Assembly (NCBI GenBank): GCA_036488585.1
Contig: DASXHH010000024.1
Coordinates: 85-64,084, forward strand
From: Candidatus Saccharimonadia bacterium
Lineage (GTDB): Bacteria > Patescibacteriota > Saccharimonadia > UBA4664
Reading direction: 5' to 3'
Length of the DNA stretch: 64,000 nucleotides
How positions within the stretch are numbered: position 1 is the first letter of the stretch; each line of letters starts with the position of its first letter. The notes beneath the pieces were generated by a model. It was given only the letters and a program-made list of their open reading frames with translations. It did not search any database and was not told the origin of the DNA. Below, piece after piece: positions 1 to 31,132 of this stretch. The translations under genes were made by a program, and so were the position numbers.

Positions 1-499
1 AAAGGGGGTGCATTTGGCGATTGGCGCGGTGCGTGAGTACAACCGGCAACACCAGGACGAGCTTGTGAAACTGAAAATTGCCGGCAAACATTACGCCGGA
101 CATAGCAAGGATTTATATTGGCAGGAGCAAATTTTGCCGGAGCTAGGGGGCGAGATTGAGTACGCGGGATTTATTCGTGGTGACGAGGAGAAACGGCGGT
201 TTTTGGCCAATGCCCGCGCGTTAATAATGCCGAGCACCTTTGCTGAGCCGTTTGGACTGGTAATGGCCGAAGCGCTGGCTTGTGGCACGCCGATAGTGGG
301 GCTGAACTCGGGAGCGGTGGCCGAAGTGGTGCGTGACGGCGAGACGGGATTGGTGGTGAAAGACGCGAGCGAGCTGGTGGGCGCACTGGGTCGAATAAGT
401 GAAATCGACCGCGGCCAATGCCGGGCCGATTTTGAGGGGCGTTTCACGCTCGAGCGGATGGTGCGTGAGCACGCCGAATTGTACAAAAGCTTAGTATAG
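1..499 (+). CDS. Glycosyltransferase family 1 (GT4-like), C-terminal fragment; 5' end lies outside the window
   Basis: ORF 8..499 is open to the window edge. Motif EPFGLVMAEALACGTPIV is typical of the GT1/GT4 C-terminal Rossmann domain. Confidence 0.6.
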   Translation, partial: KGVHLAIGAVREYNRQHQDELVKLKIAGKHYAGHSKDLYWQEQILPELGGEIEYAGFIRGDEEKRRFLANARALIMPSTFAEPFGLVMAEALACGTPIVGLNSGAVAEVVRDGETGLVVKDASELVGALGRISEIDRGQCRADFEGRFTLERMVREHAELYKSLV

Positions 500-1063: not shown

Positions 1064-1915
1064 TTACAAGATGACCAAATCGGTCTTGATGCGCGGATGA
1101 GACACGTAGTCTTCGAGCACAAAATTTTCCTCTCGGAAGTCATCGATATTCTTCACGTCGCCCACGATCTTGAGCTTGGGAAGCGGGAAGGGCTTGCGGC
1201 GCAGCTGTTCTTTGGCGGCGTCGATGTGGTTCTTGTAGAGGTGGGCGTTACCGGCGGCAATTATCAGTTCGCGGGGCTCGGCGTCCACCAGATGCGCCAC
1301 CATGTGCAGGAGCATGGCGTACTGGGCGATGTTAAACGGCGCGCCCAAAAATACGTCCCACGAGCGTTGGTACAGCTGGAGCCGTAATTTGCCTTTGGTA
1401 AGGTCGAACTGGAACATGGTGTGGCACGGTGGCAGGCGCATATCGCCGTAATCATTGGGGTTCCAGCGCTTGTCGCCAATCTCACCCGCATTCCAGGCAC
1501 TCACGATTATGCCCTTAGAATCGGGGTTGGTCTTGAGTTCATTGATAGCCCAAGCCAGTTGATCGAATTCGGGTTGTCCGTCAGGTCGCTTCCAATGCCG
1601 CCATTGGACGCCGTAGACCCGGCCAAGGTCGTTCGAGTCCTCGTGTAAAAATCCGTCCCAGTAGTGAATATTGTGTTCGTGCAGATATGTGACGTCCGAG
1701 CTGCCCGAAATAAACCACAATAGCTCGTGAAGCAGGATCTTAAACGGCATCTTCTTGGTGGTGAGCAACGGGAAGCCGTGCCGCATGTCGAACCGCACTT
1801 GGGTGCCAAACACCGACTTGAGGCTATGAATGCCTCGGCTGGGCTTACTCTTGCCGTTTTTAATGATATCGGCCATGAGGCCTAAATATTCGTATTCTGG
1901 ATGCCGTGTCGGCAT
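1064..1915 (-). CDS. thyA: Thymidylate synthase ThyA (start at the internal ATG preceded by GGAGAGGAGG)
   Basis: LPPCHTMFQF active-site Cys motif. RSWDVFLGAPFNIAQYAMLL carries the dUMP-discriminating Asn (PFNIA). SD GGAGG lies upstream of the ATG at 1913-1915. Confidence 0.9.
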   Translation of the reverse strand: MPTRHPEYEYLGLMADIIKNGKSKPSRGIHSLKSVFGTQVRFDMRHGFPLLTTKKMPFKILLHELLWFISGSSDVTYLHEHNIHYWDGFLHEDSNDLGRVYGVQWRHWKRPDGQPEFDQLAWAINELKTNPDSKGIIVSAWNAGEIGDKRWNPNDYGDMRLPPCHTMFQFDLTKGKLRLQLYQRSWDVFLGAPFNIAQYAMLLHMVAHLVDAEPRELIIAAGNAHLYKNHIDAAKEQLRRKPFPLPKLKIVGDVKNIDDFREENFVLEDYVSHPRIKTDLVIL

Positions 1916-2082
1916 AGTCCCCTCCTCTCCCCCTATATACATAGGCAGTATAACAAACCTGCCAAGTTGTTAATTTGTGATCTGTACTGAGGAGAGTGTG
2001 GTTGTGTTTGCGTTGGTTGCGCGAGCTTGATTCCACTTGCGTACATCCGCGGTCTGTTCCAGACGGCGGACGGTCTTGGCGG

Positions 2083-2178: not shown

Positions 2179-3072
2179 TTAGAGCTCGCTGGGGTCGTCC
2201 CAGTCGTCGGGGCTGATGTAGGCGAAGAACACCGGGACAGGCACGTCGGGCTTGCCGGCGGTCATGAGGAAGGGCCGGTTGAGCACGAGGGGCTCTGCGG
2301 TCGAGCCGAAGCACATCTCGTCCATGCCCATGGCCGAAGCTTCCTCGGCCCGGAAGCCCTTCTCGTTCATGGCCAGCTTGACCTGCATCTTGGCTTGTTG
2401 GATGATCCAGGCGCCCAGCGGTCCGGAGAGCCCGAGGTTGATGAGCCAGCTGACGTCGGGTTCGGTGTTCAGGTTCACCATCGGTACGTGGGCGCCGTTG
2501 TGCCCGGTGTAGCGGAAGCCCGGATTGTAGGTATGCAGGCCGCGGGCCAGGTGGGCTAGGTGGATCTGGTCCTTGGGCTCGTCGCACATGACGAACCGCA
2601 CGTCCAGCCCCTTCTTGGTGGATACCCGGACTACGGGGTTGGTGAACCACAAGGGCGGTTCGACCACGTCGCACCACTGGTCGCCCGAGAGCGCAAAGCC
2701 TTCGTAGGTCTGGTCTGCGCCGGTGATCGGTACGAGTTGGCCTGGGTTGACCCAGTGGTCGAGGATGTCGCTGACGCCGGCGACGCCGAAGTTGCGGCCG
2801 TTGTTGGGCCAGTCGTGGAGGTGGATGTCGAAGCCGTGCTCGGCCAGGAACCGGTTGATCTCCACGGCGGTTTCGGCGGCGATGCCCGAGACGTACTCGT
2901 CGTAGAAGGGCAGCGCCTGCAAGTAGTCGGGGAGCAAATTCACGAATCGGCTCTGCAGCCTGGAGCCGGGATGGGGTTGGGGTACCAACGTATAGTCCCC
3001 GGCGAACTTGTGGGCGGCGTAGAGCGCGGTCGCCAGTGTCATTGGGCTGAAGCCCATACTCTTACTACTCAT
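2179..3072 (-). CDS. Hypothetical protein (297 aa) with an HLHDW (HxHD) motif; function unknown
   Basis: Long ORF with a good SD (GGAGGAG) and its own terminator. No P-loop. I could not assign it to a family from the sequence. Confidence 0.55.
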   Translation of the reverse strand: MSSKSMGFSPMTLATALYAAHKFAGDYTLVPQPHPGSRLQSRFVNLLPDYLQALPFYDEYVSGIAAETAVEINRFLAEHGFDIHLHDWPNNGRNFGVAGVSDILDHWVNPGQLVPITGADQTYEGFALSGDQWCDVVEPPLWFTNPVVRVSTKKGLDVRFVMCDEPKDQIHLAHLARGLHTYNPGFRYTGHNGAHVPMVNLNTEPDVSWLINLGLSGPLGAWIIQQAKMQVKLAMNEKGFRAEEASAMGMDEMCFGSTAEPLVLNRPFLMTAGKPDVPVPVFFAYISPDDWDDPSEL

Positions 3073-3276: not shown

Positions 3277-4008
3277 ATGGAACATAAGGATTTCAGCGAT
3301 CTAAAGGCATTAATAATTAACTGTTCGATTACACACGACAAGACGAAATCGCACACGCAGAGGCTGCTCAATCGGGTGTCGGGTGTAATGGAGAAAGAGG
3401 GCGTGGAGGTGAGCCAGCTTTACATGTTGGAGCACAAGGTAGCTTTCGGGATGATCAAGGACGGGCGCGAAGAAGGCGTGGAGGACGAGTGGCCGGAAAT
3501 CCAGCGGCAGATTATGGCGGCGGACATTCTGGTGATCGGAACGCCCATTTGGCTGGGTGCTAAATCGAGCGTGGCGACGTTGGTGATCGAGCGGATGTAC
3601 GCGTATAGCGGCGACCGGAACGATAAGAGGCAATGGTTATATTACGGCAAGACCGGCGGGTGCGTGGTGACTGGTAACGAGGATGGGATTAAGGCTTGCG
3701 CGCGCGATATATTGTATTGCTTGCAGCACATCGGGTACATGATACCGCCGCAGGCGGATTGTGGCTGGATTGGCGAGGCTGGTCCCGGTCCGAGCTATGG
3801 TGACACTGAGTTTGAGGGCAAAAAGTTCGACCCGCCGGTGGGGTATGCGAATGATTTTACGAACCGGAATGCCACGTATATGGCGTGGAACCTGATGCAC
3901 ACGGCTCGGATGCTCAAGGACAACGGCGGGATTCCGGCAGTCGGCAACACGACCGAGGGCTGGGAGCACGTGACGAACGCCAAGCGGCAGAATCCGGAGT
4001 ACCGCTAG
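3277..4008 (+). CDS. Flavodoxin-like fold NAD(P)H-dependent FMN reductase / NAD(P)H:quinone oxidoreductase family protein
   Basis: N-terminal LKALIINCS ... ADILVIGTPIWLG pattern is typical of flavodoxin-like FMN reductases. Confidence 0.6.
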   Translation: MEHKDFSDLKALIINCSITHDKTKSHTQRLLNRVSGVMEKEGVEVSQLYMLEHKVAFGMIKDGREEGVEDEWPEIQRQIMAADILVIGTPIWLGAKSSVATLVIERMYAYSGDRNDKRQWLYYGKTGGCVVTGNEDGIKACARDILYCLQHIGYMIPPQADCGWIGEAGPGPSYGDTEFEGKKFDPPVGYANDFTNRNATYMAWNLMHTARMLKDNGGIPAVGNTTEGWEHVTNAKRQNPEYR

Positions 4009-4979
4009 ACCAGCCGACGGACGGTCTTGCCGGCTTGTTCGAGCATTTTGATGGCGTAGCCCGCACTGTGGTCTTCGCGGTAGACGACTTCGGCGATGGG
4101 CATGGCGGTGAACATGCGGGCGCAGGTGGGACATGGGAGCAGGTTGATGAAGACAGTGGTGCCGCGTAGGTCGAGGCCGGTAGAGACAGCTTTGGCTACG
4201 AGTTCGACCTCAGCGTGGTTAGTGTCGTAGTGGTTGAGGTCGTTCATGGGCGAGAAATTCAGTTCGCGGGTGGCGCCGTGGTGCCAGGCGTAGGTCTGAT
4301 ACGGAAGTACGCGGTTAAAGGCGATCTCTTTTAGGCGGTACTCACTCCCCTGCTTGAGCCCGAGTGCAACGCCGGTTTGGAATCCGTTGTCGAATGAATG
4401 AGTGGCAGCGAGGTTGGCTAGTTCAAGCATTTCGGCTTCGGAATACAGTCTTTCGTCAGATAGTTGTGGCAGTGCGGGTAACTCCGCTAAGTGCTCGAAG
4501 GCTTGGGCCTCGGCCTCGTCGGTGAAGGGCGAAACGTGATCGTAGGGAATGCGGCGGGTGGCTAAGGCGTAGTACGGCGGCTGAGTGTGAAAGAGATGCT
4601 TCCAGGAGCCGTTGACGAGTACGACCCGCTGGAGGTTGAGCTTCTCGAGAATAAATTTGAGGTCGCGCTGGAAATAGTTGAGGGTGGTGATGGTGTGCTT
4701 GGGTTTGGTGGCGTTGACCTTGGAGATGATAGGTCCGATGGCTTCGAGCTGGAGGGTCTTGAACTGGGGCTGGTCTTCGAGACCGAGGACGTAGGGCTCT
4801 TTGGCCAGGCCGAGGATGATGTTGGCCCTAGGTAGGTAAGTTTTGACGAGCTGCTTGAAGCGGGCTTGGCTAAGCTCGCGGGGGGCGGCGATGAAGATGG
4901 CGCTAAGATCGGTTAAGGGTTTCTTGGAGCCAAAAGCCAGATCGGTCCAATCATACTGCATCGGATTGCTCGCTGGCAT
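4005..4979 (-). CDS. Fusion protein: unknown N-terminal domain (~175 aa) plus a C-terminal cytidine/deoxycytidylate deaminase (CDA-fold, dCMP-deaminase-like) domain
   Basis: Zinc motifs HAEVELV and PCPTCARMF in the C-terminal half. Start may be M1 (4979) or M7 (4961). The 5' end overlaps the upstream HIT gene. Confidence 0.7.
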   Translation of the reverse strand: MPASNPMQYDWTDLAFGSKKPLTDLSAIFIAAPRELSQARFKQLVKTYLPRANIILGLAKEPYVLGLEDQPQFKTLQLEAIGPIISKVNATKPKHTITTLNYFQRDLKFILEKLNLQRVVLVNGSWKHLFHTQPPYYALATRRIPYDHVSPFTDEAEAQAFEHLAELPALPQLSDERLYSEAEMLELANLAATHSFDNGFQTGVALGLKQGSEYRLKEIAFNRVLPYQTYAWHHGATRELNFSPMNDLNHYDTNHAEVELVAKAVSTGLDLRGTTVFINLLPCPTCARMFTAMPIAEVVYREDHSAGYAIKMLEQAGKTVRRLV

Positions 4980-5493
4980 ATTTGGTTTCGTAGCGGGAGG
5001 AGAGATCGCGAATTTTCTTGGATTGGGTACGGAAAAGTTGGGCGTTTTCGAGCGGGGTGTACCTGAGCTTACGGTAGTTCCAGACGGACAGGTCGGGGCC
5101 GTCTGAGGGAATGCAGTGCATATGCAAGTGATCTTGGACGGTAGAGTTGACGGCCGCGCCGCCGTCTCGCACTACGTACTGAATGTCCTTGAGACCGTGG
5201 ACCTTACGGATGATTTTTTTAGCGATGTAGGTGAATTTTTGGACCGTGGCCCATTCGTCTGGTGTCAGCTCTTTGATGGATTTAACGTGGCGGCGCGGGA
5301 TGATCATGAGGTTGCCGTCGATGTAGGCAAAGAGCGGCACGGTGAGGACGACGCCGTTTTCCTCGTGCACGATGTATTTGTCGCGCAGGTCGCAGAAGAC
5401 GCATTTGCCCACCGTGGTCCAGATTTCGCCGTAGTAGCCGCCGGTGCGGGCGTCTCTATAATATTCCTGCTTTTGGCGTTCTTCGGGGCTCAA
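4951..5493 (-). CDS. HIT-family (histidine triad) nucleotide hydrolase/transferase with a ~30-aa N-terminal extension; probable TTG start 1 nt after the upstream stop
   Basis: HLHMHCIP histidine triad. AAGGAG lies 7 nt upstream of the TTG at 5491-5493. The ORF track's ATG at 5553 would overlap the upstream gene by 59 nt. Confidence 0.75.
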   Translation of the reverse strand: MSPEERQKQEYYRDARTGGYYGEIWTTVGKCVFCDLRDKYIVHEENGVVLTVPLFAYIDGNLMIIPRRHVKSIKELTPDEWATVQKFTYIAKKIIRKVHGLKDIQYVVRDGGAAVNSTVQDHLHMHCIPSDGPDLSVWNYRKLRYTPLENAQLFRTQSKKIRDLSSRYETKYASEQSDAV

Positions 5494-5494
5494 A

Positions 5495-6067
5495 TTAGCG
5501 CTCCTTGAGCGGATCTTTGCGCAGCTCCATGAAGTCCTTGAAGATGTCGCCAAGGTGGCCGCCGATGGCGCGCTGGACGATCTTGGTGGTGGAGATAGCG
5601 ATGGACTGGCGCTCGACCATTTTGACCTCCCCGCCGTAGTGGATGACGGTTTTGTACTCCTTGGAGTTTTTGTAGTCGCCAGTCCAGTCTTCTTGGACGG
5701 TCACGAACACGTCGGGCTTGAGCAGGCCGAGCGAGGGCGCACAGCTGGGCTCGGGCAGGATGGTGACAAAATCAACGCTTCTGAGGTAGGTGAGCATTTC
5801 GGCGCGGATTTTCTCGTCGAGGATAGGCTTATTGGGGCCTTTGACGCGGCGGATGGCCTCGTTGGAGCTGACGCCCGCTACTAGCACGTCGCCTTCGGCG
5901 CGAGCCTTCTCGAGGTAGCGGCACTGGCCGGCGTGAATGAGGTCCCAGGAACCAGCGGTGAACACCACTTTTTTGCTGCGAGCTTTGAGTTGCTCGTGTA
6001 GTTGCATGAGGTCACTTTGCGCGACTAAGCGCTTCTTCCAACTCTGCGCGACGGATGCGTCTGCCAT
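5495..6067 (-). CDS. Cytidylyltransferase-fold nucleotidyltransferase (TagD / ECT / RfaE-domain-II-like) with a variant HxGQ motif
   Basis: FTAGSWDLIHAGQ (HxGH-like, second His replaced by Gln) and a downstream ISTT motif characteristic of CTP-dependent cytidylyltransferases. Confidence 0.7.
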   Translation of the reverse strand: MADASVAQSWKKRLVAQSDLMQLHEQLKARSKKVVFTAGSWDLIHAGQCRYLEKARAEGDVLVAGVSSNEAIRRVKGPNKPILDEKIRAEMLTYLRSVDFVTILPEPSCAPSLGLLKPDVFVTVQEDWTGDYKNSKEYKTVIHYGGEVKMVERQSIAISTTKIVQRAIGGHLGDIFKDFMELRKDPLKER

Positions 6068-6094
6068 ACTCCACCTTCATATGCGTAACTTTAT

Positions 6095-7120
6095 CTATAA
6101 TACTGGTTTTGCTCCGGTGGGTGCAACGGGTGCTCCAGATTGGAGCAAGCCGCGGGCTTGGAGCAGGTCGCGGGTGCGGACGAAATGTTCGTTTTGGGGC
6201 AGGAATTCGTACGGGTTATGGCGCAGGAATTTATAGAAATCGTGGAATAGAAACAGGTTAATGAGCTCGTCGAGTAGGTTGAGGCGGCCGCGGATGATGG
6301 GGGCGCTGAAGGGCTTGGGGCCGCGTTTGTTATATCCCGCGACCAGGAAGTATTTTCGAACTTGGGCCTCGGTTTTGTACTTTGAGTCAACCAAGAGGAA
6401 GGCCAGGGTGCGGGCGATGTCGAAGACGGGGTGGCCGACGGCGGTCTTCTCGAAGTCCAGGATGCCGGAAATTTCGGGGCCGGCGGGGGTTTGGCGGAAC
6501 AGGATGTTCGAGCGGACAAAATCGAGATGCAGGATTTGCTGACGTGGAATCCGGCGGCAGAGATTGAGTAGCCCGGTGAAATGGGCGAATAGTTTGGGTT
6601 GGATGGTGAGCCCGAGCTTGGCCCCGACGGCGGCTTGGACTGCGGGATCATCGAAGTAGCGGACCATGTGAGCGGTGATTTCGAGGTAATCGATGGCGGC
6701 TTCGGGGAAATCTGATGGGGGCGTGAGGTCGGCGAGCTCGGCGTGGAGGTGGCTGAGGGCAGCGCCGAGGAGTTTGAGGTGACGCCGAGTGTAAGCTTCC
6801 CAGGGGATGGTGGCGCCGGGCAAGTAGGTGTAGAGCGCGGTGTAGCGCAGGTAATGATCGTTTTTGAGCTGGGTGATAGGTCCGAGTGTGCGGCGGGTGG
6901 GCAAGCCGTGAACAGCCAGCGTATCGGACACGAAGTTAGCGCGGCGGATGCGCTCGAGGATGCCCGGTTCGCGCTTGTACACGATGAGGTTCACCGGCTC
7001 GCCGCTGGTGGGTGTAATGCGGTACGAATGGTTGCGGTAACCGCTTTGGCGCTCGGCGACGGCGAGCGGTTCCAGTCCGTACTCGCGGGCGATCCTGGTG
7101 ATGAGCTCGGGGGTGGTCAT
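6095..7120 (-). CDS. Aminoglycoside phosphotransferase (APH) / choline-ethanolamine kinase-like fold small-molecule kinase
   Basis: HLDFVRSNILF (HxDxxxxN catalytic loop) and ILDFEKTAVGHPVFDIA (DFE/DFG-like motif). Confidence 0.7.
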   Translation of the reverse strand: MTTPELITRIAREYGLEPLAVAERQSGYRNHSYRITPTSGEPVNLIVYKREPGILERIRRANFVSDTLAVHGLPTRRTLGPITQLKNDHYLRYTALYTYLPGATIPWEAYTRRHLKLLGAALSHLHAELADLTPPSDFPEAAIDYLEITAHMVRYFDDPAVQAAVGAKLGLTIQPKLFAHFTGLLNLCRRIPRQQILHLDFVRSNILFRQTPAGPEISGILDFEKTAVGHPVFDIARTLAFLLVDSKYKTEAQVRKYFLVAGYNKRGPKPFSAPIIRGRLNLLDELINLFLFHDFYKFLRHNPYEFLPQNEHFVRTRDLLQARGLLQSGAPVAPTGAKPVL

Positions 7121-7465: not shown

Positions 7466-8581
7466 TTATTTGCGGCCGGTGGAGATAGCCTGGATGGTAG
7501 CAGCGGCGTCAACTTTGATGCCGGGGCCCATCGAGGTGGTGGCGGAGAGCGCCCTCACGTAGGTGCCCTTGGCAGAGGCGGGCTTGGCCTTGAGCACTGC
7601 GCTCAGGAATGCGGTGGCGTTGGCACGCAGGTCTTCGGGCTTAAAGCTCGCTTTGCCGACCGCCTGGTGGACGATCGCGGACTTGTCGATGCGGAACTCA
7701 ACCTTACCGCCCTTGGCCTCTTTGACGGCCTTGGCGACATCGGGAGTGACGGTACCGCTCTTGGGGTTCGGCATGAGGCCGCGCGGTCCTAGGACCTTGG
7801 CGACGCGGCCGAGGGTGGCCATCTTGTCAGGAGTAGCTACGAGCATATCGAACTCGAGCTTGCCCTTCTCGATGTCGGCCAGCAGCTTGTCGGTGCCAAC
7901 TAGGTCGGCGCCGGCAGCTTTGGCATCCTCGGCAGCTTTGCCGTCTGCGAATACGGCTACACGGACGGTTTTGCCGGTGCCGTGCGGCAGGACTACGCTG
8001 GAGCGGACCATCTGGTCGGCCTGGCGCGGATCGACACCGAGGTTAATGTGAAGCTCCACGGTGGAGTCAAACTTGGTGGTAGCGGTCTTTTGGGCTAGGT
8101 CCAGAGCTTCATCGAGGGTGTAAGCCTTGCCTACTTCGATGAGCTCGGAAGCCTTACGGTATTTCTTACCGTGTTGGTGCAACGGGTTGGGTTGCTGGCG
8201 CTTGGCCTTGGGCGGAGCGTCAGCCTCAGCGGCGTCAGTTTCGGCGCGGTGCTCCTTGGCCTCCTGGCGGGACTCTTCGGCCTCTACCTCACGGACGGCT
8301 TTGGCGCTGCGCTTGCCGGCTTTAGCCGTGCCTTTGGGCTCCTCGCCCTTAGCGTCGGTGCCGGTGGCGGCGTCGGTGGGAGCGTCCGATTCACTTACGT
8401 GGTCTTCATTCTCGTCGGGGGTCGATTCCTTGGCGCCGGACCTTTCGAGGTTCTGGTCCTCGGCCACGGCTACCACGTCGTCGGTGAGGTCCACCTCGGG
8501 CGCAGTCTCCTGGATCTCGGTGATCTCATCATGAGTCTCTTCGGCGGCCATAATTTCTTCGCGGTTCTTTGATTCTGCCAT
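7466..8581 (-). CDS. rplA: 50S ribosomal protein L1 with a ~139-aa acidic low-complexity N-terminal extension
   Basis: C-terminal 232 aa align to L1 (VLPHGTGKTVRVAVF, GPRGLMPNPKSGTVT). ATG at 8579-8581 has GGAGG 12 nt upstream and overlaps the rplK stop (TAATG). Confidence 0.9.
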   Translation of the reverse strand: MAESKNREEIMAAEETHDEITEIQETAPEVDLTDDVVAVAEDQNLERSGAKESTPDENEDHVSESDAPTDAATGTDAKGEEPKGTAKAGKRSAKAVREVEAEESRQEAKEHRAETDAAEADAPPKAKRQQPNPLHQHGKKYRKASELIEVGKAYTLDEALDLAQKTATTKFDSTVELHINLGVDPRQADQMVRSSVVLPHGTGKTVRVAVFADGKAAEDAKAAGADLVGTDKLLADIEKGKLEFDMLVATPDKMATLGRVAKVLGPRGLMPNPKSGTVTPDVAKAVKEAKGGKVEFRIDKSAIVHQAVGKASFKPEDLRANATAFLSAVLKAKPASAKGTYVRALSATTSMGPGIKVDAAATIQAISTGRK

Positions 8582-9962: not shown

Positions 9963-11720
9963 CTAAAGCTTAATCCAGGGTAGAGCCAGCACGGCAACTA
10001 CGAGGATGGTGGTGAGTGATACGAGTAGGGCGAGTGGGGCACGCTTGGCTTCGGCGGGTTGGCGGCCGGAGAGTAGGTTGACGGCGCCGTCTGTGTGATC
10101 GGCCAGTACGAGCTGGCGGTAGAGGGCGACCCACCAGGCGGCGGTGCCAGCGCCGAATAAGGCTCCGGCTAGCCAGGCGACGACCGCTACGCCGAGTGTG
10201 ACGGCGAGATGGAGGCCGGCGGGGGCGGCGGCGACAAATGCGACAGCGAGGACTGCCAGAGGTAGGGCCATGAGTAGCTCGATGGCAGCAGCCAGGAACC
10301 GCAAGCCAAGCAGTTCAAAGCGGTGGCTAAACAATCGCCATCCGAGTTTGATGGCAGATTTGGGACCATTAGCAGTGAGCGTAATTGCTACGCCGGCCAG
10401 GCCGTGGGTAATGGCCATGGCTGTGAGCAGATAGAGTAGCAGCAGGAAAGCTACGAACAGGGCGCCGATTTGCAGCTGGATATTGACGGGCCAGGTTTGG
10501 CCGCCAGTGGCGATGAGCAGGCCAACGACGGCTAGTAGAGCGAGCTGGATGCAGGCGTAAAGGCTGTCGAGAGCTAGTCGACGGCCAAAGGTGTTGATGC
10601 CGACGCCTAGCTGTTTTGAGAGCGAGACGGGGCGATGATCGGCTTCGCGGGCTACGCCATAGGTGATGGCAGCTTGTCCAACACTGCGCCCCAGGTAATA
10701 CAGGAGAGCCAGCCCGGTGAGTTGCGCTACAAGAAATGGCTCGGGGTGCTGCAAGCGGTTGGCTAGCCCGTTCGGGCCGAGGGTGAGGAACAGCCAAGTA
10801 CCGTAGCTCACCACCGCCGCGAAAGCTACGGATGCCAGACCGGCTAGGCCAAGATGACGCGGACGGGCCCGAGCTTGCAGGCTGAATTTCATTGCGGGGC
10901 CAAAATGTAGTGCAGGCACGCCGACTTTGTGGACATGGTGACGCTTGGGAGCGGATTTTGGCCAGGTGAAGAGAGGCTTGCGTTTGTGCTTGGGCTTATG
11001 GACGGGCTTGGATTTGGCTAGCTCTGGCTCTTCGGTATCGGGTTTGATGGTGACTGGACGCGGCTTGCGGGGCGCGATGTCGCTCATGCGGCGAGGTCCG
11101 GGCAGTGGTATGTCGGCGGGTGGTGCTGGTGTTGTCGGCGTAGGAACAGGGGCAGGCACTGGGCTAGGAGCTTTGGGGCTGCCGAGTTGAGGAGCGTCTG
11201 GAAGGGCAGGGGCGGTCATATTGATGCTGCGGCGAGGAGCGTCGAGCGGGCCGGACTTGGGGCGGCCCGGTTTGCGGTGCTTGGTTCTGGTGGTGTCGGT
11301 AATAATTTCCGGCTTAGAATTGTCCGACTTGGCAATGTCGGTTTCGCCTTCGGCTTCAACCACAGGCTTGATGCGCCCGCGGGATTTGAAGATGAGCGGA
11401 TGCGTCCCGCTATCAGCATCGGGTTCGGCGGTTTTGGTGGGCTTTGGGTCCATGGTTGGCTCGGGTGCTTTAACCGGTTTGTCCCTGCTCGCAGGCTTGG
11501 TGGCCTGCTTGGTGTCGACCGCGGCGGTAACGATGGCGGTGGCGGTGGTGGCTGCTGGTATGCCGGAAGCGGATAGGATTTTTACGCCTTCGGGTAAACC
11601 GCTGGCTTGCACGCCGGCCACGCCGCTGGCGGGAGCGGGCACTGCTTGGCCACAATTAATACAGAAGTGCTGCCCTTGCACCTCAATGATGTCGTCGGAA
11701 TGGCAGTTAGGACAAACCAT
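9963..11720 (-). CDS. Membrane protein: N-terminal zinc-ribbon (CPNC ... CINC), long Pro/Ala/Thr/Lys-rich disordered linker, C-terminal polytopic TM domain
   Basis: MVCPNCHSDDIIEVQGQHFCINCG has two CxxC pairs. The PAPVPTPTTPAPP linker and at least 8 hydrophobic segments in the C-terminal 330 aa. Confidence 0.6.
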   Translation of the reverse strand: MVCPNCHSDDIIEVQGQHFCINCGQAVPAPASGVAGVQASGLPEGVKILSASGIPAATTATAIVTAAVDTKQATKPASRDKPVKAPEPTMDPKPTKTAEPDADSGTHPLIFKSRGRIKPVVEAEGETDIAKSDNSKPEIITDTTRTKHRKPGRPKSGPLDAPRRSINMTAPALPDAPQLGSPKAPSPVPAPVPTPTTPAPPADIPLPGPRRMSDIAPRKPRPVTIKPDTEEPELAKSKPVHKPKHKRKPLFTWPKSAPKRHHVHKVGVPALHFGPAMKFSLQARARPRHLGLAGLASVAFAAVVSYGTWLFLTLGPNGLANRLQHPEPFLVAQLTGLALLYYLGRSVGQAAITYGVAREADHRPVSLSKQLGVGINTFGRRLALDSLYACIQLALLAVVGLLIATGGQTWPVNIQLQIGALFVAFLLLLYLLTAMAITHGLAGVAITLTANGPKSAIKLGWRLFSHRFELLGLRFLAAAIELLMALPLAVLAVAFVAAAPAGLHLAVTLGVAVVAWLAGALFGAGTAAWWVALYRQLVLADHTDGAVNLLSGRQPAEAKRAPLALLVSLTTILVVAVLALPWIKL

Positions 11721-25217: not shown

Positions 25218-26237
25218 TTAAGGGGTGAATACTCTCAGGTATTGCACTTCTTCGTAACCGGCTCCAGCCGGCCAGCTGGCGTGGTTCGGGTCATCCGCGT
25301 TCGGTCCGCTGATGCCCCAGTTGATGTACTGGCTGTTGTGGGCTAGAACGCTTGCGGGAACCGAGGCGTAGAGCTTACCGTTGATGTATACGTTGGCTCC
25401 TGCATAGTTGGCCTTGAACTCCATATCTACGACGTTCCAGCCAGGTACGGCATCGTTGGCCGGAGTGCTGGATAGTTTAGGGTTGTCCCAGCTAGCGGTA
25501 CCAATGGACTGGGGTGAACTGCTTGATCCATAGTGATACGTGACGTAGCTTTGTCCGTACTGCGTCTCGATGGCGTCAAGTTCGCCGGTAGCTGGCCAGT
25601 TAGTGCCGTCCGTCCAGTAACTAGCCCAGTCGATGAGCGTACTGCCACTTCCAGGTAACCAGACCTTCGATTCAACCACCGTACCGTTAGTGGATATCAA
25701 GCTAGCCGAGCGGATATGCCCACAGTCGGTGTTACTACCAGCCGAGGCGGCGGTACCCCGCGTTGATAATTTGACCGCATCGTTGGCTGCATCGTACGTG
25801 GTGTTGCTAGTGGGGCACGAACCCCCGCCTTCTTGGGTGTTGTTGGCATTTTGAGCCCAGTTGCCGGAAGTCATCTGGCTGGCGGTGTATGACTGCGAGA
25901 GCACGCTATAACTACTCAAAGCCGAGGCGTATGGTAGCGAGGACGAGCCGCCGCCCGTAGGGGTAGGTGTGGGTGTAGAGATTGAGGTTGGGGTAGGCGT
26001 GGAGCTAGATCCCGTTCCAAACTTGACCGCCTTACCGCCTATGGCCGTGCTGTTTGTCACAAGGGAAGCATTTCCGGCGATGGTACCAGATTGGGCGAGC
26101 ATACTAATTGCGGCGCCTGTGGCAGCGAAGGTGGCCAATACCAATACTGCCCCCGCTACCACAAAGACGATGATAAAAGGGGTCGATCTCACTCGCTTTG
26201 GTTTTAGAAGTTCGCGTACGCGTATTTTATATGCCAC
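25218..26237 (-). CDS. Membrane-anchored glycoside hydrolase family 16-like (beta-glucanase/laminarinase-type) protein
   Basis: N-terminal TM anchor, ST/P-rich linker, catalytic ExDxxE motif (GELDAIE). Confidence 0.55.
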   Translation of the reverse strand: MAYKIRVRELLKPKRVRSTPFIIVFVVAGAVLVLATFAATGAAISMLAQSGTIAGNASLVTNSTAIGGKAVKFGTGSSSTPTPTSISTPTPTPTGGGSSSLPYASALSSYSVLSQSYTASQMTSGNWAQNANNTQEGGGSCPTSNTTYDAANDAVKLSTRGTAASAGSNTDCGHIRSASLISTNGTVVESKVWLPGSGSTLIDWASYWTDGTNWPATGELDAIETQYGQSYVTYHYGSSSSPQSIGTASWDNPKLSSTPANDAVPGWNVVDMEFKANYAGANVYINGKLYASVPASVLAHNSQYINWGISGPNADDPNHASWPAGAGYEEVQYLRVFTP

Positions 26238-26326
26238 CTTTTAAGGATGTTCTGTGAACAAATTATAATGCCTGTGGTTATTCAAGCACAGGGTAACACA
26301 TTGGTGTATGAATCTTATAGTAAAGG

Positions 26327-26836
26327 GTGCGAAGCAATAATCGATCGAGTTTCAAAGTGAGTGTTGCTCAAATAACCCGCTATACTGGGGGCATGTATGA
26401 AGCCTCGGTGTCAGTGGATTTCGAGTGTAGCCGGGAGGTCGTGTACGGGATTTTGTCTAATCTCGGTCGATATCCGGAATGGAACCACGGCATGATTTAT
26501 ATCTCGCATACAGGGCCGATGTACGCGGGATTGAAATTTGAAACGCGGACACGAGTGCTGGGGCAAATCAACGCCGCTGACGTGGAGGTAGTGCATTTGG
26601 TCCCCCCTGCCTTGATTCGGCTTCAGAGTAAAACCGGACTGGTCAGCTACAACGCTGTGTACCGGCTGAAGGATAGGGCCAATGGTGGATCGATGGTGAC
26701 ATGTGACCTTAAATTCGAGTTTAGTAAGGCTGTGCTTAGTTTGGCACACGAAGCGATTGAGGGCATGGCTCGCGACCGTCTGGAGAACGACTTACTCAAG
26801 TTGGCGAAAATTTTGGATAACAAGGCTTATCACTAG
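26327..26836 (+). CDS. SRPBCC (START/Bet v1/polyketide-cyclase-like) domain protein; likely start at the internal ATG 26393
   Basis: ~145-aa domain with a pattern typical of the SRPBCC ligand-binding fold. Weak assignment. Confidence 0.4.
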   Translation: MRSNNRSSFKVSVAQITRYTGGMYEASVSVDFECSREVVYGILSNLGRYPEWNHGMIYISHTGPMYAGLKFETRTRVLGQINAADVEVVHLVPPALIRLQSKTGLVSYNAVYRLKDRANGGSMVTCDLKFEFSKAVLSLAHEAIEGMARDRLENDLLKLAKILDNKAYH

Positions 26837-26956
26837 GGAGGGGATGCAAAACAATAGTTAAGCCGACAAGTGCCAGCCGCCTGGAGATTTAATACGTGAT
26901 TCAATCTTCGGGTAGTTGTCTGCGCAAACGTGCACGGTGGGATTGGAATTGGGCGG

Positions 26957-26992
26957 AAAACAGCCGACTGCATAGCGCTAAATCGGCCGTTT
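26957..26992 (-). terminator. Putative terminator after the 27070..29016 gene: 10-bp stem AAACAGCCGA/TCGGCCGTTT (1 mismatch), large loop, short T-run on minus
   Basis: Inverted repeat seen directly. The U-tract is weak. Confidence 0.35.
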
Positions 26993-27069
26993 GAGGAGAA
27001 ATAACGCTTATGGACGCCTGGCTAGGGTTATTGGGACATTATCCGAGTACCGGTGACAGCAAAAACGCT

Positions 27070-29016: not shown

Positions 29017-29534
29017 GGCTGCTTCTGCAATTCGCTAATGGCCTGCTCAAATATAGCTTTCTGGAAGGGCGCGCCCGGGAGGTTCTTGGGCATTAGGCGA
29101 ATAGCTTGCTGATAATACCCGATCGCCTGGCTCTTTTGCCCAAGCTGACTACTGGCCATGGCCGCCCCTGCCGCCTCACCAAACGTAATTCCAGTAATAG
29201 CTATGCTATTACGATACGAGTTCAAAGCTGCGCTGAAATTGCCAGCCGTCATATAATCCGCCGCTGCATTCTGCAGGGCTCGCACACGATATTGATTGCT
29301 ATGACTGCGTTGGGCCAGTGCAGTCCATTGATCGGCCGCCTTTGCAAATTTATTTGTTGATTCCAGCTGTTCAGTGATAGCCTGGGTCTCCGAAAAGTCC
29401 TGGCTGGCCAGGTGATCCTCGTAAATAATGTATCCTCTCCAGCCCCCAATAAGAAGAATCACCGCAAATAAAAAGCCACCGATAACTAAATATCGCTTGC
29501 GTCGTACGCGGCTAGCTTGTCCGACCTGTGGCAT
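29013..29534 (-). CDS. Single-pass membrane protein with TPR-like helical repeats (hypothetical); start overlaps the downstream secreted-protein gene by 4 nt
   Basis: N-terminal TM (YLVIGGFLFAVILLIGGW), then helical Ala/Gln-rich repeats. Confidence 0.4.
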   Translation of the reverse strand: MPQVGQASRVRRKRYLVIGGFLFAVILLIGGWRGYIIYEDHLASQDFSETQAITEQLESTNKFAKAADQWTALAQRSHSNQYRVRALQNAAADYMTAGNFSAALNSYRNSIAITGITFGEAAGAAMASSQLGQKSQAIGYYQQAIRLMPKNLPGAPFQKAIFEQAISELQKQP

Positions 29535-29611
29535 TGGAAACCCTATAGAATATATCGAAAATTATACTATTTATGTTCGTAAAATGCTTGTGATTCGACG
29601 GGCGAAAATGA

Positions 29612-29661
29612 ATAACCAAACAACCAAAAGACCCAGCCGATAGATGTGACGAGGGTCTTTT
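29612..29661 (-). terminator. Terminator after HAD gene 1: 9-bp perfect stem AAAAGACCC/GGGTCTTTT followed by a T-rich run on minus
   Basis: Seen directly. Downstream of the stop at 29756. Confidence 0.4.
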
Positions 29662-29755
29662 GGAGCTTAAAATGCGACCGTTAATCGAATCCTAGATCGG
29701 GAATTAGAGAAGGTTGGCGTACAGGCCATATGAAAGTTATTTACTGAGGAGCTGG

Positions 29756-30388
29756 TTACTTTTCGGGGAGTAAGCTTAATAACTGAGAGAAATCCTCAAA
29801 GGAATAGTCGGCTTTCTCGGAATGACCCCAAACCATGACAGCTATGAGCCCGAGCTGCTTAGCAGGGATTATATCCACATCCTCACGGTCGCCGACAAAG
29901 ACAAGGTTGGATGGATGAGCGTTACTACGAGTGACTACAAGTTCAAATCCTTGAGGATGGGGTTTTGGCTCTGAAATGTCATCGCTGGTCAAAATATGTG
30001 TAAACCAGGAAGGATTAATGTTCACGGTATGAAGCGTGCGCTCAACACGCTCCGGCTTGGAGTTACTGAGAAGACCAATCGGTAAAACCTCGCGAATAGT
30101 GTCAACCGTTTTGTATATGCGCTCATCAGGCCTGTAATATTGGGTCTCATCTAGCTGACCAAAATATGTTGGCCAGAAGTCCTTTGGCATTCCGAGTGCC
30201 TTAAAGACCGCCGACTTGCTCCCGTACTTTTTGTAGGCAGCGCGATAGTCATCCTTGACTTCATCACTTACATCTTGATGTGTGGCCTCAGCATAGGCTT
30301 CAAGACATAGAGCATCTTGGGCCGCAAGAAATTCGGGGGTTTGCAGAGTGAGGGTTCCGTTGAGATCAAACCACATTTCTTTAATCAT
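29756..30388 (-). CDS. HAD-superfamily hydrolase (phosphatase-like), paralog 1
   Basis: Motif I FDLNGTL (DxxGT) at the N-terminus. HAD core motifs downstream (VFVGDREDVDI). Confidence 0.7.
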   Translation of the reverse strand: MIKEMWFDLNGTLTLQTPEFLAAQDALCLEAYAEATHQDVSDEVKDDYRAAYKKYGSKSAVFKALGMPKDFWPTYFGQLDETQYYRPDERIYKTVDTIREVLPIGLLSNSKPERVERTLHTVNINPSWFTHILTSDDISEPKPHPQGFELVVTRSNAHPSNLVFVGDREDVDIIPAKQLGLIAVMVWGHSEKADYSFEDFSQLLSLLPEK

Positions 30389-30402
30389 GAGGTAATTATA
30401 TG

Positions 30403-30452
30403 CTTAAATACGCAAAATCACGCCATGTGGCGCGACTTGACAACGTTATAAA
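30403..30452 (-). promoter_or_regulatory. Conserved ~50-nt element (copy 1) immediately upstream of HAD gene 1. Contains the inverted repeat CGCCA-TG-TGGCG and TTGTCA/TTGACA hexamers. Putative promoter/operator.
   Basis: Near-identical to copy 2 at 31133..31180: AAATAC(GC)AAAATCACGCC[A/T]TGTGGCGCGACTTGACAACGT. Confidence 0.35.
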
Positions 30453-30533
30453 ACCATAGCAGGACGTTAATCGAATGATTGAGGACGATTCTGAAGCAAC
30501 TATTGATGAGGTTCGGAAATTATTGGCCGAGAG

Positions 30534-31097: not shown

Positions 31098-31132
31098 TGA
31101 GTAAGTATATCAAGAATGGGAGAAGACCATGC

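What the first reader, a model, noticed from the sequence alone, without database searches (positions are those of the whole stretch)
4005..4979. Unusual domain architecture: unknown N-terminal domain fused upstream of a dCMP-deaminase-like CDA domain
Stand-alone dCMP deaminases (ComEB-like) are ~150 aa. RibD has the deaminase N-terminal to a reductase. Here the deaminase is C-terminal to an unrelated ~175-aa domain, with no HxE/PCxxC in the N-part. The fusion sits in the operon above and 3 kb from thyA, so it may be the dUMP-supplying deaminase with a regulatory or targeting domain. Alternatively it may be a deaminase for another cytosine-containing substrate.
Basis: partly seen in the sequence, partly recalled or inferred. 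Interest (0 to 1): 0.55.

Follow-up and report, generated by a model that had tools for sequence, protein, structure and literature searches.

The report
Saccharibacterial dCMP-deaminase-like enzyme with novel N-domain
This gene encodes a zinc deaminase of the dCMP-deaminase type that carries an undescribed 160-residue nucleotide-binding-like domain in front; the fusion is conserved across Saccharibacteria, sits in a fixed gene cassette beside thymidylate synthase, and probably supplies dUMP for thymidine synthesis in bacteria that cannot make nucleotides de novo.

Summary
Window 4005..4979 (-) is one ORF. The likely start is ATG 4961, which gives 318 aa.

- **Deaminase domain.** Residues ~174-318 form a cytidine-deaminase-fold (CDA) domain with intact HAE and PCxxC motifs. 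Its best sequence and structure matches are dCMP deaminases (DCTDs): T4, human, S-TIM5, S. mutans and PBCV-1.
- **N-terminal domain.** Residues 1-~158 match nothing in Pfam, NCBIfam, PHROGs, PADLOC or PDB sequences. AlphaFold2 models them confidently as a Rossmann-like beta/alpha domain. Foldseek gives only weak resemblance (TM up to 0.52) to HUP nucleotidyltransferases and SLOG domains.
- **Distribution.** An N-domain profile found only 71 clusters among 1.84 billion representatives. Essentially all of them are the same fusion. The fusion occurs in >800 proteins and 79 genomes, nearly all labelled Saccharibacteria or Patescibacteria.
- **Synteny.** A HIT gene lies directly upstream in 73/76 loci and a cytidylyltransferase-like gene lies upstream in 73/75. 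thyA lies within 6 kb in 51/55, often with DHFR.
- **Comparison.** An oral saccharibacterium without this gene has dCTP deaminase (Dcd) in its own Tmk-DHFR-ThyA cluster.

Best reading: a lineage-specific DCTD-like deaminase that feeds ThyA, with the N-domain acting as an integrated nucleotide-binding accessory module. The canonical DCTD allosteric motif is not kept. Substrate and N-domain role are untested. This is a new variant of a known kind, of moderate interest.

The parts
4005..4961 (-). Whole gene for the N-domain + CDA deaminase (318 aa + stop). An alternative upstream ATG at 4979 gives the 324-aa form annotated by NCBI.
   Evidence: ORF list; 100% identical P0001 (318 aa) and P0192 (324 aa); homologues start at MxxDW; junction sequence.
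4488..4961 (-). N-terminal Rossmann-like domain (residues 1-158 of the 318-aa form): beta0 plus five beta-alpha units. Near-universal residues are W5, G51, E55, Y58, G60, E62, F67, Y96, G118-S119-W120, H125, S144-P-F146, E149 and E151-A152.
   Evidence: AF2 pLDDT 92.7, pTM 0.87. No Pfam or PDB sequence hit. Foldseek found nothing at E<1e-3; the best matches are HUP nucleotidyltransferases and SLOG domains. Conservation. By the secondary-structure string, the conserved residues fall in the loops that follow the strands.
4443..4487 (-). Variable inter-domain linker (residues 159-173).
   Evidence: Mean pairwise identity 22%, against 59% and 66% for the two domains.
4008..4442 (-). DCTD-like cytidine-deaminase-fold domain (residues 174-318).
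   Evidence: Pfam PF00383, 33.1 bits. PDB sequence and profile searches: five DCTDs at E 2e-7 to 5e-5, TadA at 2e-3. Foldseek: T4 1vq2 at 2.4e-8, 2w4l, 4p9c, 2hvw, 7fh4, with TM normalised to target 0.63-0.79.
4209..4217 (-). H249-A250-E251: zinc ligand and catalytic glutamate.
   Evidence: Motif scan. H and E are conserved in 55/55 diverse family members.
4122..4136 (-). P276-C277-P278-T279-C280: PCxxC zinc ligands.
   Evidence: Motif scan. C277 and C280 are conserved in 55/55.
4311..4322 (-). A214-F215-N216-R217, at the position of the DCTD allosteric-site motif G(Y/W)N(A/G). Only the Asn is invariant; the fourth position is mostly K/R in the family.
   Evidence: Motif frequencies; motif definition from PMC12088426.
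4951..5553 (-). HIT-family gene directly upstream, overlapping the deaminase start. It has the HxHxHxx and CxFC motifs. Its closest solved relatives are Ap4A phosphorylases.
   Evidence: Pfam HIT; PDB 3ano at 5e-8. Directly upstream in 73/76 loci and also in deep-branching members. Motifs.
5495..6067 (-). Cytidylyltransferase-like (HldC/ECT/GCT-like) HUP nucleotidyltransferase. Its signature reads HxGQ instead of HxGH.
   Evidence: Pfam PF01467; TIGR02199 at 115.9 bits, below its cut-off; PDB 3elb, 5x9q. Upstream in 73/75 loci. HxGQ in about 70/76.
6095..7120 (-). APH-family (kinase-fold) phosphotransferase, first gene of the cassette.
   Evidence: Pfam APH at 1.2e-19. The order APH-CTPtr-HIT-deaminase holds in 57/68 loci.
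1064..1942 (-). Thymidylate synthase ThyA, the presumed consumer of the dUMP produced.
   Evidence: Pfam at 324 bits. TIGR03284 equivalog at 302.8 bits, cut-off 108. thyA lies within the locus in 51/55 genomes.

Best explanation
The gene encodes the lineage-specific, DCTD-type zinc deaminase of environmental Saccharibacteria. Its C-terminal domain hydrolytically deaminates a deoxycytidine nucleotide to the uracil nucleotide. The substrate is most likely dCMP; dCDP or dCTP are not excluded. The product feeds the neighbouring ThyA/DHFR thymidylate cycle in an organism that lives on salvaged nucleotides.

The N-terminal 160 residues are a previously undescribed Rossmann-like domain that packs rigidly against the deaminase domain. 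It most likely acts as a non-catalytic nucleotide-binding module for effector sensing and/or assembly. In that role it would take over from the inter-subunit allosteric site of canonical hexameric DCTDs, whose signature motif is not conserved here.

The HIT enzyme, which is translationally coupled directly upstream, plausibly delivers the monophosphate substrate, for example (d)CMP from a (d)CMP-X compound such as dCTP.

**Shown:** the architecture, the fold class, the intact catalytic motifs, the DCTD affinity, the narrow taxonomic range and the synteny.

**Inferred:** the substrate, the role of the N-domain and the coupling to HIT.
For: **DCTD affinity.**
- The CDA domain ranks DCTDs first. 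A PDB sequence profile gives E 2e-7 to 5e-5 for five DCTDs and 2e-3 for TadA.
- Foldseek gives 2.4e-8 to 1.5e-6 for DCTDs and about 1e-4 for TadA.
- PHROGs gives 'dCMP deaminase' at 4e-8.
- HAE and PCxxC are conserved in 55/55 diverse members.

**Context.**
- ThyA is a bona fide equivalog and lies in 51/55 loci: 26 directly downstream and co-directional, 20 divergent at the cassette's 5' end.
- DHFR, SHMT and a dNMP kinase lie nearby. Deep-branching members keep HIT-deaminase-DHFR-thyA.
- S. epibionticum has a Tmk-Dcd-DHFR-ThyA cluster. No PF00383 and no PF01636 hit was found in its annotation tables. Dcd is therefore a positional analogue.
- Saccharibacteria lack de novo nucleotide synthesis (PMC6031116).

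**N-domain.**
- The model is confident (pLDDT 92.7).
- The full-length pTM of 0.86 argues for a fixed inter-domain arrangement.
- The nearest folds are nucleotide-binding HUP and SLOG domains.
- It is as conserved as the catalytic domain.
- It is never found with another partner.
- The allosteric motif G(Y/W)N(A/G) reads x(F/Y/H)N(K/R) in this family.
Against: - No biochemical data exist.
- The CDA domain is only 17-21% identical to solved DCTDs. It scores far below the ComEB equivalog cut-off, 24.9 against 219 bits, so the substrate could differ.
- The N-domain fold matches are all non-significant (E>3e-3, TM<=0.52), and no known nucleotide-binding motif is present.
- Its conserved Glu, Ser and His residues would also fit catalysis.
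- I could not inspect coordinates or PAE, so the domain interface and the position of the conserved residues relative to the active site are unknown.
- The most constant neighbours are the HIT and cytidylyltransferase-like genes, whose link to dTMP synthesis is not obvious. A GT4 glycosyltransferase also recurs nearby, which hints at an envelope theme.
- Complementarity with Dcd rests on one genome.
Confidence: 0.45

Rival explanations
1. Bifunctional enzyme. The N-domain is a second catalytic domain. It could be, for example, a nucleotide hydrolase, pyrophosphatase, N-glycosidase or esterase. It would act before or after the deamination step, within a pathway run by the kinase / nucleotidyltransferase / HIT cassette.
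For: - The near-universal residues are polar or aromatic (E55, Y58, E62, Y96, S119, W120, H125, S144, E149, E151). By the secondary-structure string they follow the beta-strands, which is where Rossmann-like enzymes place active sites.
- Conservation equals that of the catalytic CDA domain.
- The nearest folds include enzymes: HUP nucleotidyltransferases, PP-loop enzymes and LOG/SLOG domains.
Against: - No catalytic signature of any of those families is present: no HxGH, SGGxDS, PGGxGTxxE or P-loop.
- There are no significant sequence or fold matches.
- Several basic residues that are conserved in the core clade (R28, K13/K14) vary in deep-branching members.
Confidence: 0.2
2. The deaminase works on a different cytosine compound generated by the upstream genes, not on dCMP. 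Candidates are a CDP-alcohol, a CDP-sugar, CMP or CTP from the cytidylyltransferase/HIT steps. The N-domain would then recognise the non-nucleoside part of that compound.
For: - HIT lies directly upstream in 73/76 loci and the cytidylyltransferase-like gene upstream in 73/75, at least as constant as thyA. Divergent members keep one or the other.
- The CDA domain is strongly diverged from DCTDs.
- The family has its own invariant DHSxGY motif near the pocket and lacks the DCTD allosteric motif.
- The nucleotidyltransferase's nearest solved relatives make CDP-ethanolamine, CDP-glycerol, CDP-choline or ADP-heptose.
Against: - All the best hits are dCMP deaminases.
- thyA flanks the cassette at either end in 46/55 loci, and DHFR, SHMT and a dNMP kinase cluster with it.
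- No known CDA-fold enzyme deaminates CDP-alcohols (own knowledge).
- Dcd occupies the comparable cluster in S. epibionticum.
Confidence: 0.2
3. Nucleic-acid-editing or toxin-type deaminase (TadA-like, MafB19-like or APOBEC-like), with the N-domain serving as a targeting or immunity-related module.
For: Pfam MafB19-deam scores 28.1 bits (cut-off 27) and APOBEC3 scores 18.5 bits over the zinc-motif region. PADLOC 'dCTPase' scores 22 bits.
Against: - These hits cover only the shared HAE..PCxxC core.
- TadA and APOBEC rank 3-4 orders of magnitude below the DCTDs.
- The C-terminal strand-helix region aligns with DCTDs.
- The syntenic context is housekeeping, next to ribosomal-protein and thymidylate genes, in about 79 genomes. 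There is no toxin-immunity, secretion or defence-island context.
- There is one copy per locus.
Confidence: 0.04
4. Artefact: two adjacent genes merged by a sequencing or annotation error, or an over-extended start.
For: One locus (L084) shows the N-domain and the CDA domain as separate ORFs. The 324-aa and 318-aa starts differ between annotations.
Against: - More than 800 proteins, and loci in 79 genomes, carry the single ORF.
- The L084 split sits just after an A7 homopolymer. A one-base indel there would restore the frame, and thyA is also split on that contig.
- AF2 models one compact two-domain protein.
Confidence: 0.01

Closest known systems
Canonical dCMP deaminases (DCTD/ComEB; T4 Cd 1VQ2, human DCTD 2W4L, S. 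mutans 2HVW, cyanophage S-TIM5 4P9C, PBCV-1 7FH4)
   Same: - CDA fold with HAE and PCxxC zinc site.
- An insertion of dCMP-deaminase length before HAE.
- A C-terminal strand-helix region that aligns with DCTDs.
- Best sequence and structure matches.
- Genomic association with thymidylate synthesis.
   Different: - About 160 extra N-terminal residues forming a separate Rossmann-like domain.
- Only 17-21% identity over the aligned columns.
- The allosteric G(Y/W)N(A/G) motif is replaced by x(F/Y/H)N(K/R).
- A family-specific DHSxGY motif.
- Fails the ComEB equivalog cut-off.
- Oligomeric state unknown.
DcdV / anti-phage dCTP deaminase (N-terminal P-loop-kinase-like domain + C-terminal DCTD-like domain; NF041025, PADLOC dCTPase)
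   Same: The same order of modules: an N-terminal alpha/beta domain that could bind nucleotides, followed by a DCTD-like deaminase.
   Different: - The N-domain has no P-loop and no sequence match.
- Only the zinc-motif region hits, at 22 bits.
- The context is housekeeping and thymidylate-related, not a defence island.
[quoted passage not shown]
   Same: A DCTD-like catalytic domain permanently fused to a non-catalytic N-terminal partner. The authors suggest the fusion may have made canonical allostery obsolete (PMC12088426). This is a useful model for how the fusion here might work.
   Different: The N-terminal partner here is a Rossmann-like beta/alpha domain, not a CDA fold. The lineages are unrelated.
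RibD (riboflavin deaminase-reductase)
   Same: A CDA-fold deaminase fused to a second alpha/beta domain.
   Different: The order is reversed. The reductase is DHFR-like, whereas Foldseek aligns only the CDA part of RibD 2hxv (150 columns). No riboflavin genes are seen nearby.
dCTP deaminase Dcd (dUTPase fold) of oral Saccharibacteria
   Same: It sits in a comparable genomic neighbourhood (Tmk-Dcd-DHFR-ThyA in S. epibionticum) and probably plays the same physiological role of dUMP supply.
   Different: The fold and chemistry are unrelated: no zinc and a trimeric dUTPase-like structure.
Stand-alone regulatory nucleotide-binding Rossmann-like modules (USP/HUP domains, MGS-like allosteric domain of carbamoyl-phosphate synthetase, SLOG domains)
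   Same: A three-layer alpha/beta/alpha domain with conserved residues after the beta-strands. These are the nearest, though weak, fold neighbours.
   Different: No significant structural or sequence match, and none of their signature motifs. Ligand binding has not been shown.

Membership tests
CDA superfamily (PF00383 dCMP_cyt_deam_1) | H(C)xE ... PCxxC zinc-binding and catalytic motifs, and a score above the Pfam gathering threshold | tested here: met
   33.1 bits against a cut-off of 25. HAE at 249-251 and PCPTC at 276-280. Conserved in 55/55.
dCMP deaminase (DCTD/ComEB) | Closest relatives by sequence and fold are characterised dCMP deaminases rather than TadA, CDD, RibD or APOBEC | tested here: met
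   The top five PDB sequences are all DCTDs (2e-7 to 5e-5), with TadA at 2e-3. The top 15 Foldseek chains are all DCTDs.
dCMP deaminase (DCTD/ComEB) | Allosteric-site motif G(Y/W)N(A/G) (PMC12088426) | tested here: not met
   The motif reads A-F-N-R here. Across 120 close homologues it is mostly [SAT]FN[KR], and only the Asn is invariant.
dCMP deaminase (DCTD/ComEB) | NCBIfam equivalog TIGR02571 (ComEB) trusted cut-off | tested here: not met
   24.9 bits against 219.45.
dCMP deaminase (DCTD/ComEB) | Single-domain protomer of about 15-20 kDa forming a ring-shaped homohexamer | tested here: not met
   The protomer has two domains and 318 aa. The oligomeric state cannot be tested with these tools.
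dCMP deaminase (DCTD/ComEB) | [quoted passage not shown] | not testable with these tools
   Only contextual support: thyA/DHFR synteny and Dcd as positional analogue.
DcdV / anti-phage dCTP deaminase (NF041025) | N-terminal P-loop kinase-like domain, and a full-length match to the family model | tested here: not met
   No GxxxxGK[ST] motif. NF041025 scores 22.3 bits against a cut-off of 400, over profile positions 338-401 only. PADLOC scores 22.4 bits over the zinc motif only.
RibD | Deaminase N-terminal to a DHFR-like reductase domain (RibD_C) | tested here: not met
   The order is reversed. No RibD_C hit in Pfam. Foldseek aligns only the CDA part of 2hxv.
HUP-class nucleotidyltransferases (PF01467) for the N-domain | (H/T)xGH motif after beta1, ISTT-type motif, and a significant profile or fold match | tested here: not met
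   No Pfam hit at E<=10. Foldseek E>=3.5e-3 and TM<=0.52. hhalign against the neighbouring PF01467 protein gives probability 2-10% for a local 'GSW..H' match only.
MafB19 / toxin deaminases | Polymorphic-toxin context (N-terminal secretion or toxin-delivery domains, adjacent immunity gene) | tested here: not met
   The Pfam hit is marginal, 28.1 against 27. The context is a conserved housekeeping cassette in about 79 genomes.

The most novel reading that the evidence does not exclude
HIT + N-domain-deaminase would form an unrecognised two-step route from dCTP (or another dCMP-X compound) through dCMP to dUMP. In environmental Saccharibacteria this route would replace the Dcd/Dut route used by oral relatives. 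The N-domain would be a new nucleotide-sensing or substrate-channelling fold that docks the HIT enzyme or senses dCTP/dTTP. It would replace the inter-subunit allosteric site of classical dCMP deaminases. The co-transcribed kinase and HxGQ nucleotidyltransferase would then belong to the same deoxypyrimidine salvage line.
Probability: 0.2. Interest if true: 0.65.

Novelty: new variant of a known kind. Interest (0 to 1): 0.45.

Why it matters
Saccharibacteria and other Patescibacteria cannot make nucleotides and must rebalance salvaged pools. How they make dTMP is part of what their parasitic lifestyle depends on.

This family appears to be their main CDA-type route to dUMP. It carries a conserved domain that is absent from domain databases, and it sits in a cassette of four co-transcribed genes with no assigned pathway.

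Defining the N-domain's ligand would add a new domain family. It might also reveal a new way of regulating dCMP deaminases. It would give a foothold for assigning functions to the kinase, nucleotidyltransferase and HIT genes. It would also correct the present blanket annotation 'deoxycytidylate deaminase' / 'deaminase'.

Tried and rejected
1. **N-domain as a known family by sequence.** Pfam (E<=10 on 32 members), NCBIfam, PHROGs, PADLOC and PDB profile searches found nothing.
2. **N-domain as a promiscuous domain with other partners.** A profile search of 1.84 billion representatives found only the fusion family and fragments of it.
3. **N-domain as a diverged paralogue of the neighbouring cytidylyltransferase.** hhalign gave only a local 'GSW..H' match, with probability 10% against the single sequence and 1.8% profile-to-profile. 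Rejected as unsupported.
4. **N-domain as a degenerate CDA, a RibD reductase or a P-loop kinase.** The secondary structure is beta-alpha repeats, there is no P-loop, and Foldseek aligns RibD only over the CDA part.
5. **Natural split of the two domains (L084, P0165).** Explained by an A7 homopolymer frameshift on an error-prone contig.
6. **HIT-deaminase fusion P0122 as Rosetta-stone evidence.** It is a singleton cluster on one contig, so it carries little weight.
8. **Literature.** Searches for the fusion in Saccharibacteria/Patescibacteria found no description.
9. **dUTPase/Dcd motif scan.** A regular-expression scan of the window and 81 loci found nothing in the window and one doubtful hit in L011. 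This is heuristic and not decisive.
Full report
**1. What is at the coordinates**

Window 4005..4979 (-) is a single ORF of 324 aa.
- An identical 318-aa protein (P0001, JGI 'deoxycytidylate deaminase') and the 324-aa form (NCBI HEY2004703.1, 'deaminase [Candidatus Saccharimonadia bacterium]', on a 64,108-bp contig) are in public collections.
- Homologues begin at the equivalent of Met7 (M-x-x-D-W).
- That ATG (4961) overlaps the TGA of the upstream HIT gene by 11 nt. I therefore use 318-aa numbering below.
- Pfam sees only the zinc-motif half of a CDA domain: PF00383 at 33.1 bits (cut-off 25), and MafB19-deam at 28.1 bits. It sees nothing in the first ~175 residues.
- The window has a single H[AS]E...PCxxC motif, at 4122..4217.
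- The N-part has no HxE, no CxxC, no cysteine and no P-loop.

**2. The fusion is real and is a conserved family**

- A search of 5.8 billion proteins gave more than 833 homologues. The best 120 are all about 316 aa and cover 97-100% of the query.
- A genome scan gave 79 loci. Nearly all are from Saccharibacteria/Saccharimonadales MAGs. One is the closed genome CP025011.1, which matches the 1.45-Mb genome completed in PMC6031116.
- Mean pairwise identity among 120 homologues is 59% for the N-domain, 66% for the CDA domain and 22% for the linker. Both domains are under comparable purifying selection.
- One apparent natural split (L084: a 177-aa N-domain ORF followed by a 136-aa CDA ORF) sits just after an A7 homopolymer. 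A one-base indel there restores the frame, and thyA is also broken on that contig. It is an assembly artefact.
- One 531-aa HIT + N-domain + CDA protein (P0122) is a singleton and carries little weight.

**3. The C-terminal domain**

- AF2 on a 37-sequence alignment gives mean pLDDT 92.5 and pTM 0.86.
- Foldseek against the PDB ranks 15 dCMP-deaminase chains first. These are T4 1vq2 (2.4e-8), human 2w4l, S-TIM5 4p9c/4p9e, S. mutans 2hvw/2hvv/5c2o and PBCV-1 7fh4, with TM normalised to target of 0.63-0.79. TadA, ADAT2, RibD, yeast cytosine deaminase and APOBEC domains follow at 1e-4 or worse.
- A family profile against PDB sequences gives the same order: five DCTDs at 2e-7 to 5e-5 and TadA at 2e-3.
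- PHROGs gives 'dCMP deaminase' at 4e-8.
- His249 and Glu251 of HAE are conserved in 55/55 diverse members and Ala250 in 53/55. Cys277 and Cys280 are conserved in 55/55. The domain should therefore be catalytically competent.
- It is nevertheless an outlier:
  - identity to solved DCTDs is 17-21% over the aligned columns;
  - the ComEB equivalog scores 24.9 bits against a cut-off of 219;
  - the DCTD allosteric-site signature G(Y/W)N(A/G) (PMC12088426) reads A-F-N-R here and mostly [SAT]-F-N-[KR] in the family, with only the Asn invariant;
  - the family has its own invariant D-H-S-x-G-Y after the PCxxC strand;
  - a highly conserved insertion before HAE is modelled with low confidence (pLDDT 58-71 for residues ~231-250).

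**4. The N-terminal domain**

- Modelled alone from 32 sequences, it gives pLDDT 92.7 and pTM 0.87. The order of elements is b0-(a)-b1-a-b2-a-b3-a-b4-a-b5-a, which is Rossmann-like.
- The near-universal residues are W5, G51, E55, Y58, G60, E62, F67, Y96, G118-S119-W120, H125, S144-P-F146, E149 and E151-A152. By the secondary-structure string they lie in the segments that follow the strands. That is where Rossmann-like proteins bind ligands. This placement is an inference, because coordinates are not exposed.
- Foldseek found no significant neighbour in the PDB, with a best E of 3.5e-3. The top of the list holds HUP-class nucleotidyltransferases: PPAT, HldC 5xf2 (TM 0.52/0.60) and the Fom1 cytidylyltransferase domain. 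After them come PP-loop enzymes, E1-like TcdA/MccB, type II dehydroquinase and MgsA.
- BFVD gave the same picture: SLOG/YspA, cytidylyltransferase and LOG-like 'Rossmann-fold nucleotide-binding protein', all with E>=5e-3.
- No Pfam family matched any of 32 members even at E<=10, and no PDB sequence matched the profile.
- A profile scan of 1.84 billion representatives found just 71 clusters. Most are 293-411 aa with the N-domain at the N-terminus; the full-length ones that were aligned carry the CDA motifs. The rest are shorter fragments, plus the singleton HIT fusion.
- The domain is therefore new to the databases, is restricted to this lineage, and is never combined with anything but this deaminase.
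- The full-length pTM (0.86) is as high as that of the isolated domain. This argues for a fixed inter-domain packing rather than beads on a string.

**5. Context**

Pfam and NCBIfam assign the neighbours as follows:
- a GT4 glycosyltransferase fragment at 8..499 (+);
- ThyA at 1064..1942 (-), which passes TIGR03284;
- an unassigned ORF at 2179..3072 (-);
- an FMN-reductase-like gene at 3277..4008 (+);
- the deaminase;
- a HIT gene at 4951..5553 (-);
- a cytidylyltransferase-like gene at 5495..6067 (-);
- an APH-family kinase at 6095..7120 (-);
- DUF2277, then L1, L11, NusG and SecE.

Across the 79 loci:
- HIT is directly upstream in 73/76;
- the cytidylyltransferase-like gene is upstream in 73/75;
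- the full order APH-CTPtr-HIT-deaminase holds in 57/68, and in several others the kinase has moved just downstream;
- thyA is present in 51/55 loci with enough flank: 26 directly downstream and co-directional, 20 divergent at the cassette's 5' end.

Further context:
- DHFR, SHMT and a T4-type dNMP kinase occur next to the cassette.
- Deep-branching, low-GC members keep HIT-deaminase with DHFR, thyA and GT4, or CTPtr-deaminase.
- The HIT protein has the full HxHxHxx motif plus CxFC. Its nearest solved relatives are Ap4A phosphorylases (3ano, 5e-8).
- The nucleotidyltransferase is nearest to ethanolamine-phosphate, glycerol-3-phosphate and choline-phosphate cytidylyltransferases and to HldC. 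Its signature reads HxGQ in about 70/76 members.

**6. An informative comparison**

- In Southlakia epibionticum, an oral saccharibacterium, the gene table lists dTMP kinase, dCTP deaminase (Dcd, dUTPase-like), DHFR and thymidylate synthase side by side (SEML1_0409-0412).
- Searches of its sequence- and structure-based annotation tables found no PF00383 and no PF01636 hit (PMC10633639 supplements).
- A non-homologous deoxycytidine-nucleotide deaminase thus sits in a comparable neighbourhood in a relative that lacks this gene.
- This is the strongest contextual argument that the protein studied here supplies dUMP to ThyA.
- Saccharibacteria lack de novo nucleotide synthesis and depend on salvage (PMC6031116).

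**7. Most likely mechanism**

- *Shown:* a two-domain protein with a catalytically intact DCTD-like domain. It has a conserved, rigidly attached, Rossmann-like N-domain that resembles nucleotide-binding folds. It is co-transcribed with HIT, nucleotidyltransferase and kinase genes and is linked to thyA and DHFR.
- *Inferred:* the CDA domain deaminates a deoxycytidine nucleotide (most likely dCMP) to feed ThyA.
- *Inferred:* the N-domain binds a nucleotide effector and/or fixes the assembly. It would compensate for the non-conserved canonical allosteric motif. This is analogous in logic to CDADC1, where the authors suggest that a fused N-terminal partner may have made classical allostery obsolete.
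- *Inferred:* the HIT enzyme may generate the monophosphate substrate from a (d)CMP-X compound.
- I put about 0.45 on this package.

Rivals:
- The N-domain is catalytic, which would make the enzyme bifunctional (0.2).
- The substrate is another cytosine compound made by the cytidylyltransferase/HIT steps (0.2).
- It is an editing or toxin deaminase (0.04).
- It is an artefact (0.01).

**8. Comparison with known systems and novelty**

- The protein belongs to the CDA superfamily, and DCTDs are its nearest relatives.
- It fails three DCTD membership features: the allosteric motif, the ComEB equivalog score and the single-domain protomer. I file it as 'DCTD-like', not as a ComEB orthologue.
- It is not a DcdV-type anti-phage deaminase: it has no P-loop domain and no full-length model match.
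- It is not RibD: the order is reversed and there is no RibD_C.
- It is not CDADC1-like in fold.
- No paper found describes the fusion. Databases label it simply 'deaminase' or 'deoxycytidylate deaminase'.
- Verdict: a new variant of a known kind, with a genuinely undescribed accessory domain and an uncharacterised conserved cassette. It is of moderate interest (0.45). It is real and conserved, and it is relevant to how nucleotide-auxotrophic Patescibacteria make thymidylate. The core chemistry is expected, and the novel part has no demonstrated function yet.

Noticed in passing
window 4951..7120 (-) and loci L003-L081: A four-gene, co-directional cassette is conserved across about 79 Saccharibacteria genomes: APH-family kinase, cytidylyltransferase-like gene, HIT gene, then the N-domain deaminase. 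Adjacent genes overlap at their ends. thyA abuts either end of the cassette, and a GT4 glycosyltransferase often lies nearby. No pathway is assigned to the first three genes.
   Followed up: partly
window 5495..6067 (-): The cytidylyltransferase-like neighbour carries GSWDL(I/L)H(A/V)GQ, that is HxGQ instead of the canonical HxGH nucleotidyltransferase signature. About 70 of 76 orthologues share this. The ISTT-type motif is kept.
   Followed up: partly
P0122 (531 aa, Logan contig of 19.9 kb): A single protein fuses the HIT enzyme to the N-domain deaminase. It is a singleton cluster on one contig, so it may be a frameshift artefact rather than a true Rosetta-stone fusion.
   Followed up: partly
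L084 6001..6968: A deep-branching low-GC relative shows the N-domain and the CDA domain as separate ORFs. The break follows an A7 homopolymer, and thyA is also split on the same contig, so indel errors are the likely cause. This relative has GEYANDLGY where the core clade has EDHSxGY.
   Followed up: yes
PMC10633639 supplementary tables (Southlakia epibionticum SEML1_0409-0412): This oral saccharibacterium has a Tmk-Dcd-DHFR-ThyA cluster. Searches of its annotation tables found no PF00383 and no PF01636 hit. All four genes are scored non-essential in Tn-seq. This suggests non-orthologous displacement between Dcd and the N-domain deaminase within the phylum.
   Followed up: partly
window 2179..3072 (-): A 297-aa ORF lies between thyA and the FMN-reductase-like gene. 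It has only a faint C-terminal serpin match (E 0.0099, below threshold) and no NCBIfam hit. It is not a conserved neighbour in other loci.
   Followed up: no
window 3277..4008 (+): An NADPH-dependent FMN-reductase-like gene converges on the deaminase gene and overlaps its stop by 4 nt. It interrupts the deaminase-thyA adjacency that is seen in many other genomes.
   Followed up: no
window 7466..8581 (-): Ribosomal protein L1 is 371 aa, with a roughly 140-residue acidic/lysine-rich low-complexity N-terminal extension. Orthologues in L001 and L002 are also long, at 328 and 366 aa.
   Followed up: no
window 26000..38200: G+C drops to 0.47-0.51 at 26-32 kb, against about 0.57 elsewhere. Two tRNA genes lie there, at 31185 and 31684. 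A 2043-aa ORF (32021..38152, +) follows, in a stretch where the GC skew reverses.
   Followed up: no
window 9963..11720 (-): A 585-aa ORF has an N-terminal CxxC...CxxC zinc-ribbon-like motif, a long proline/lysine-rich segment and a C-terminal multi-pass hydrophobic region. It lies next to secE-nusG.
   Followed up: no
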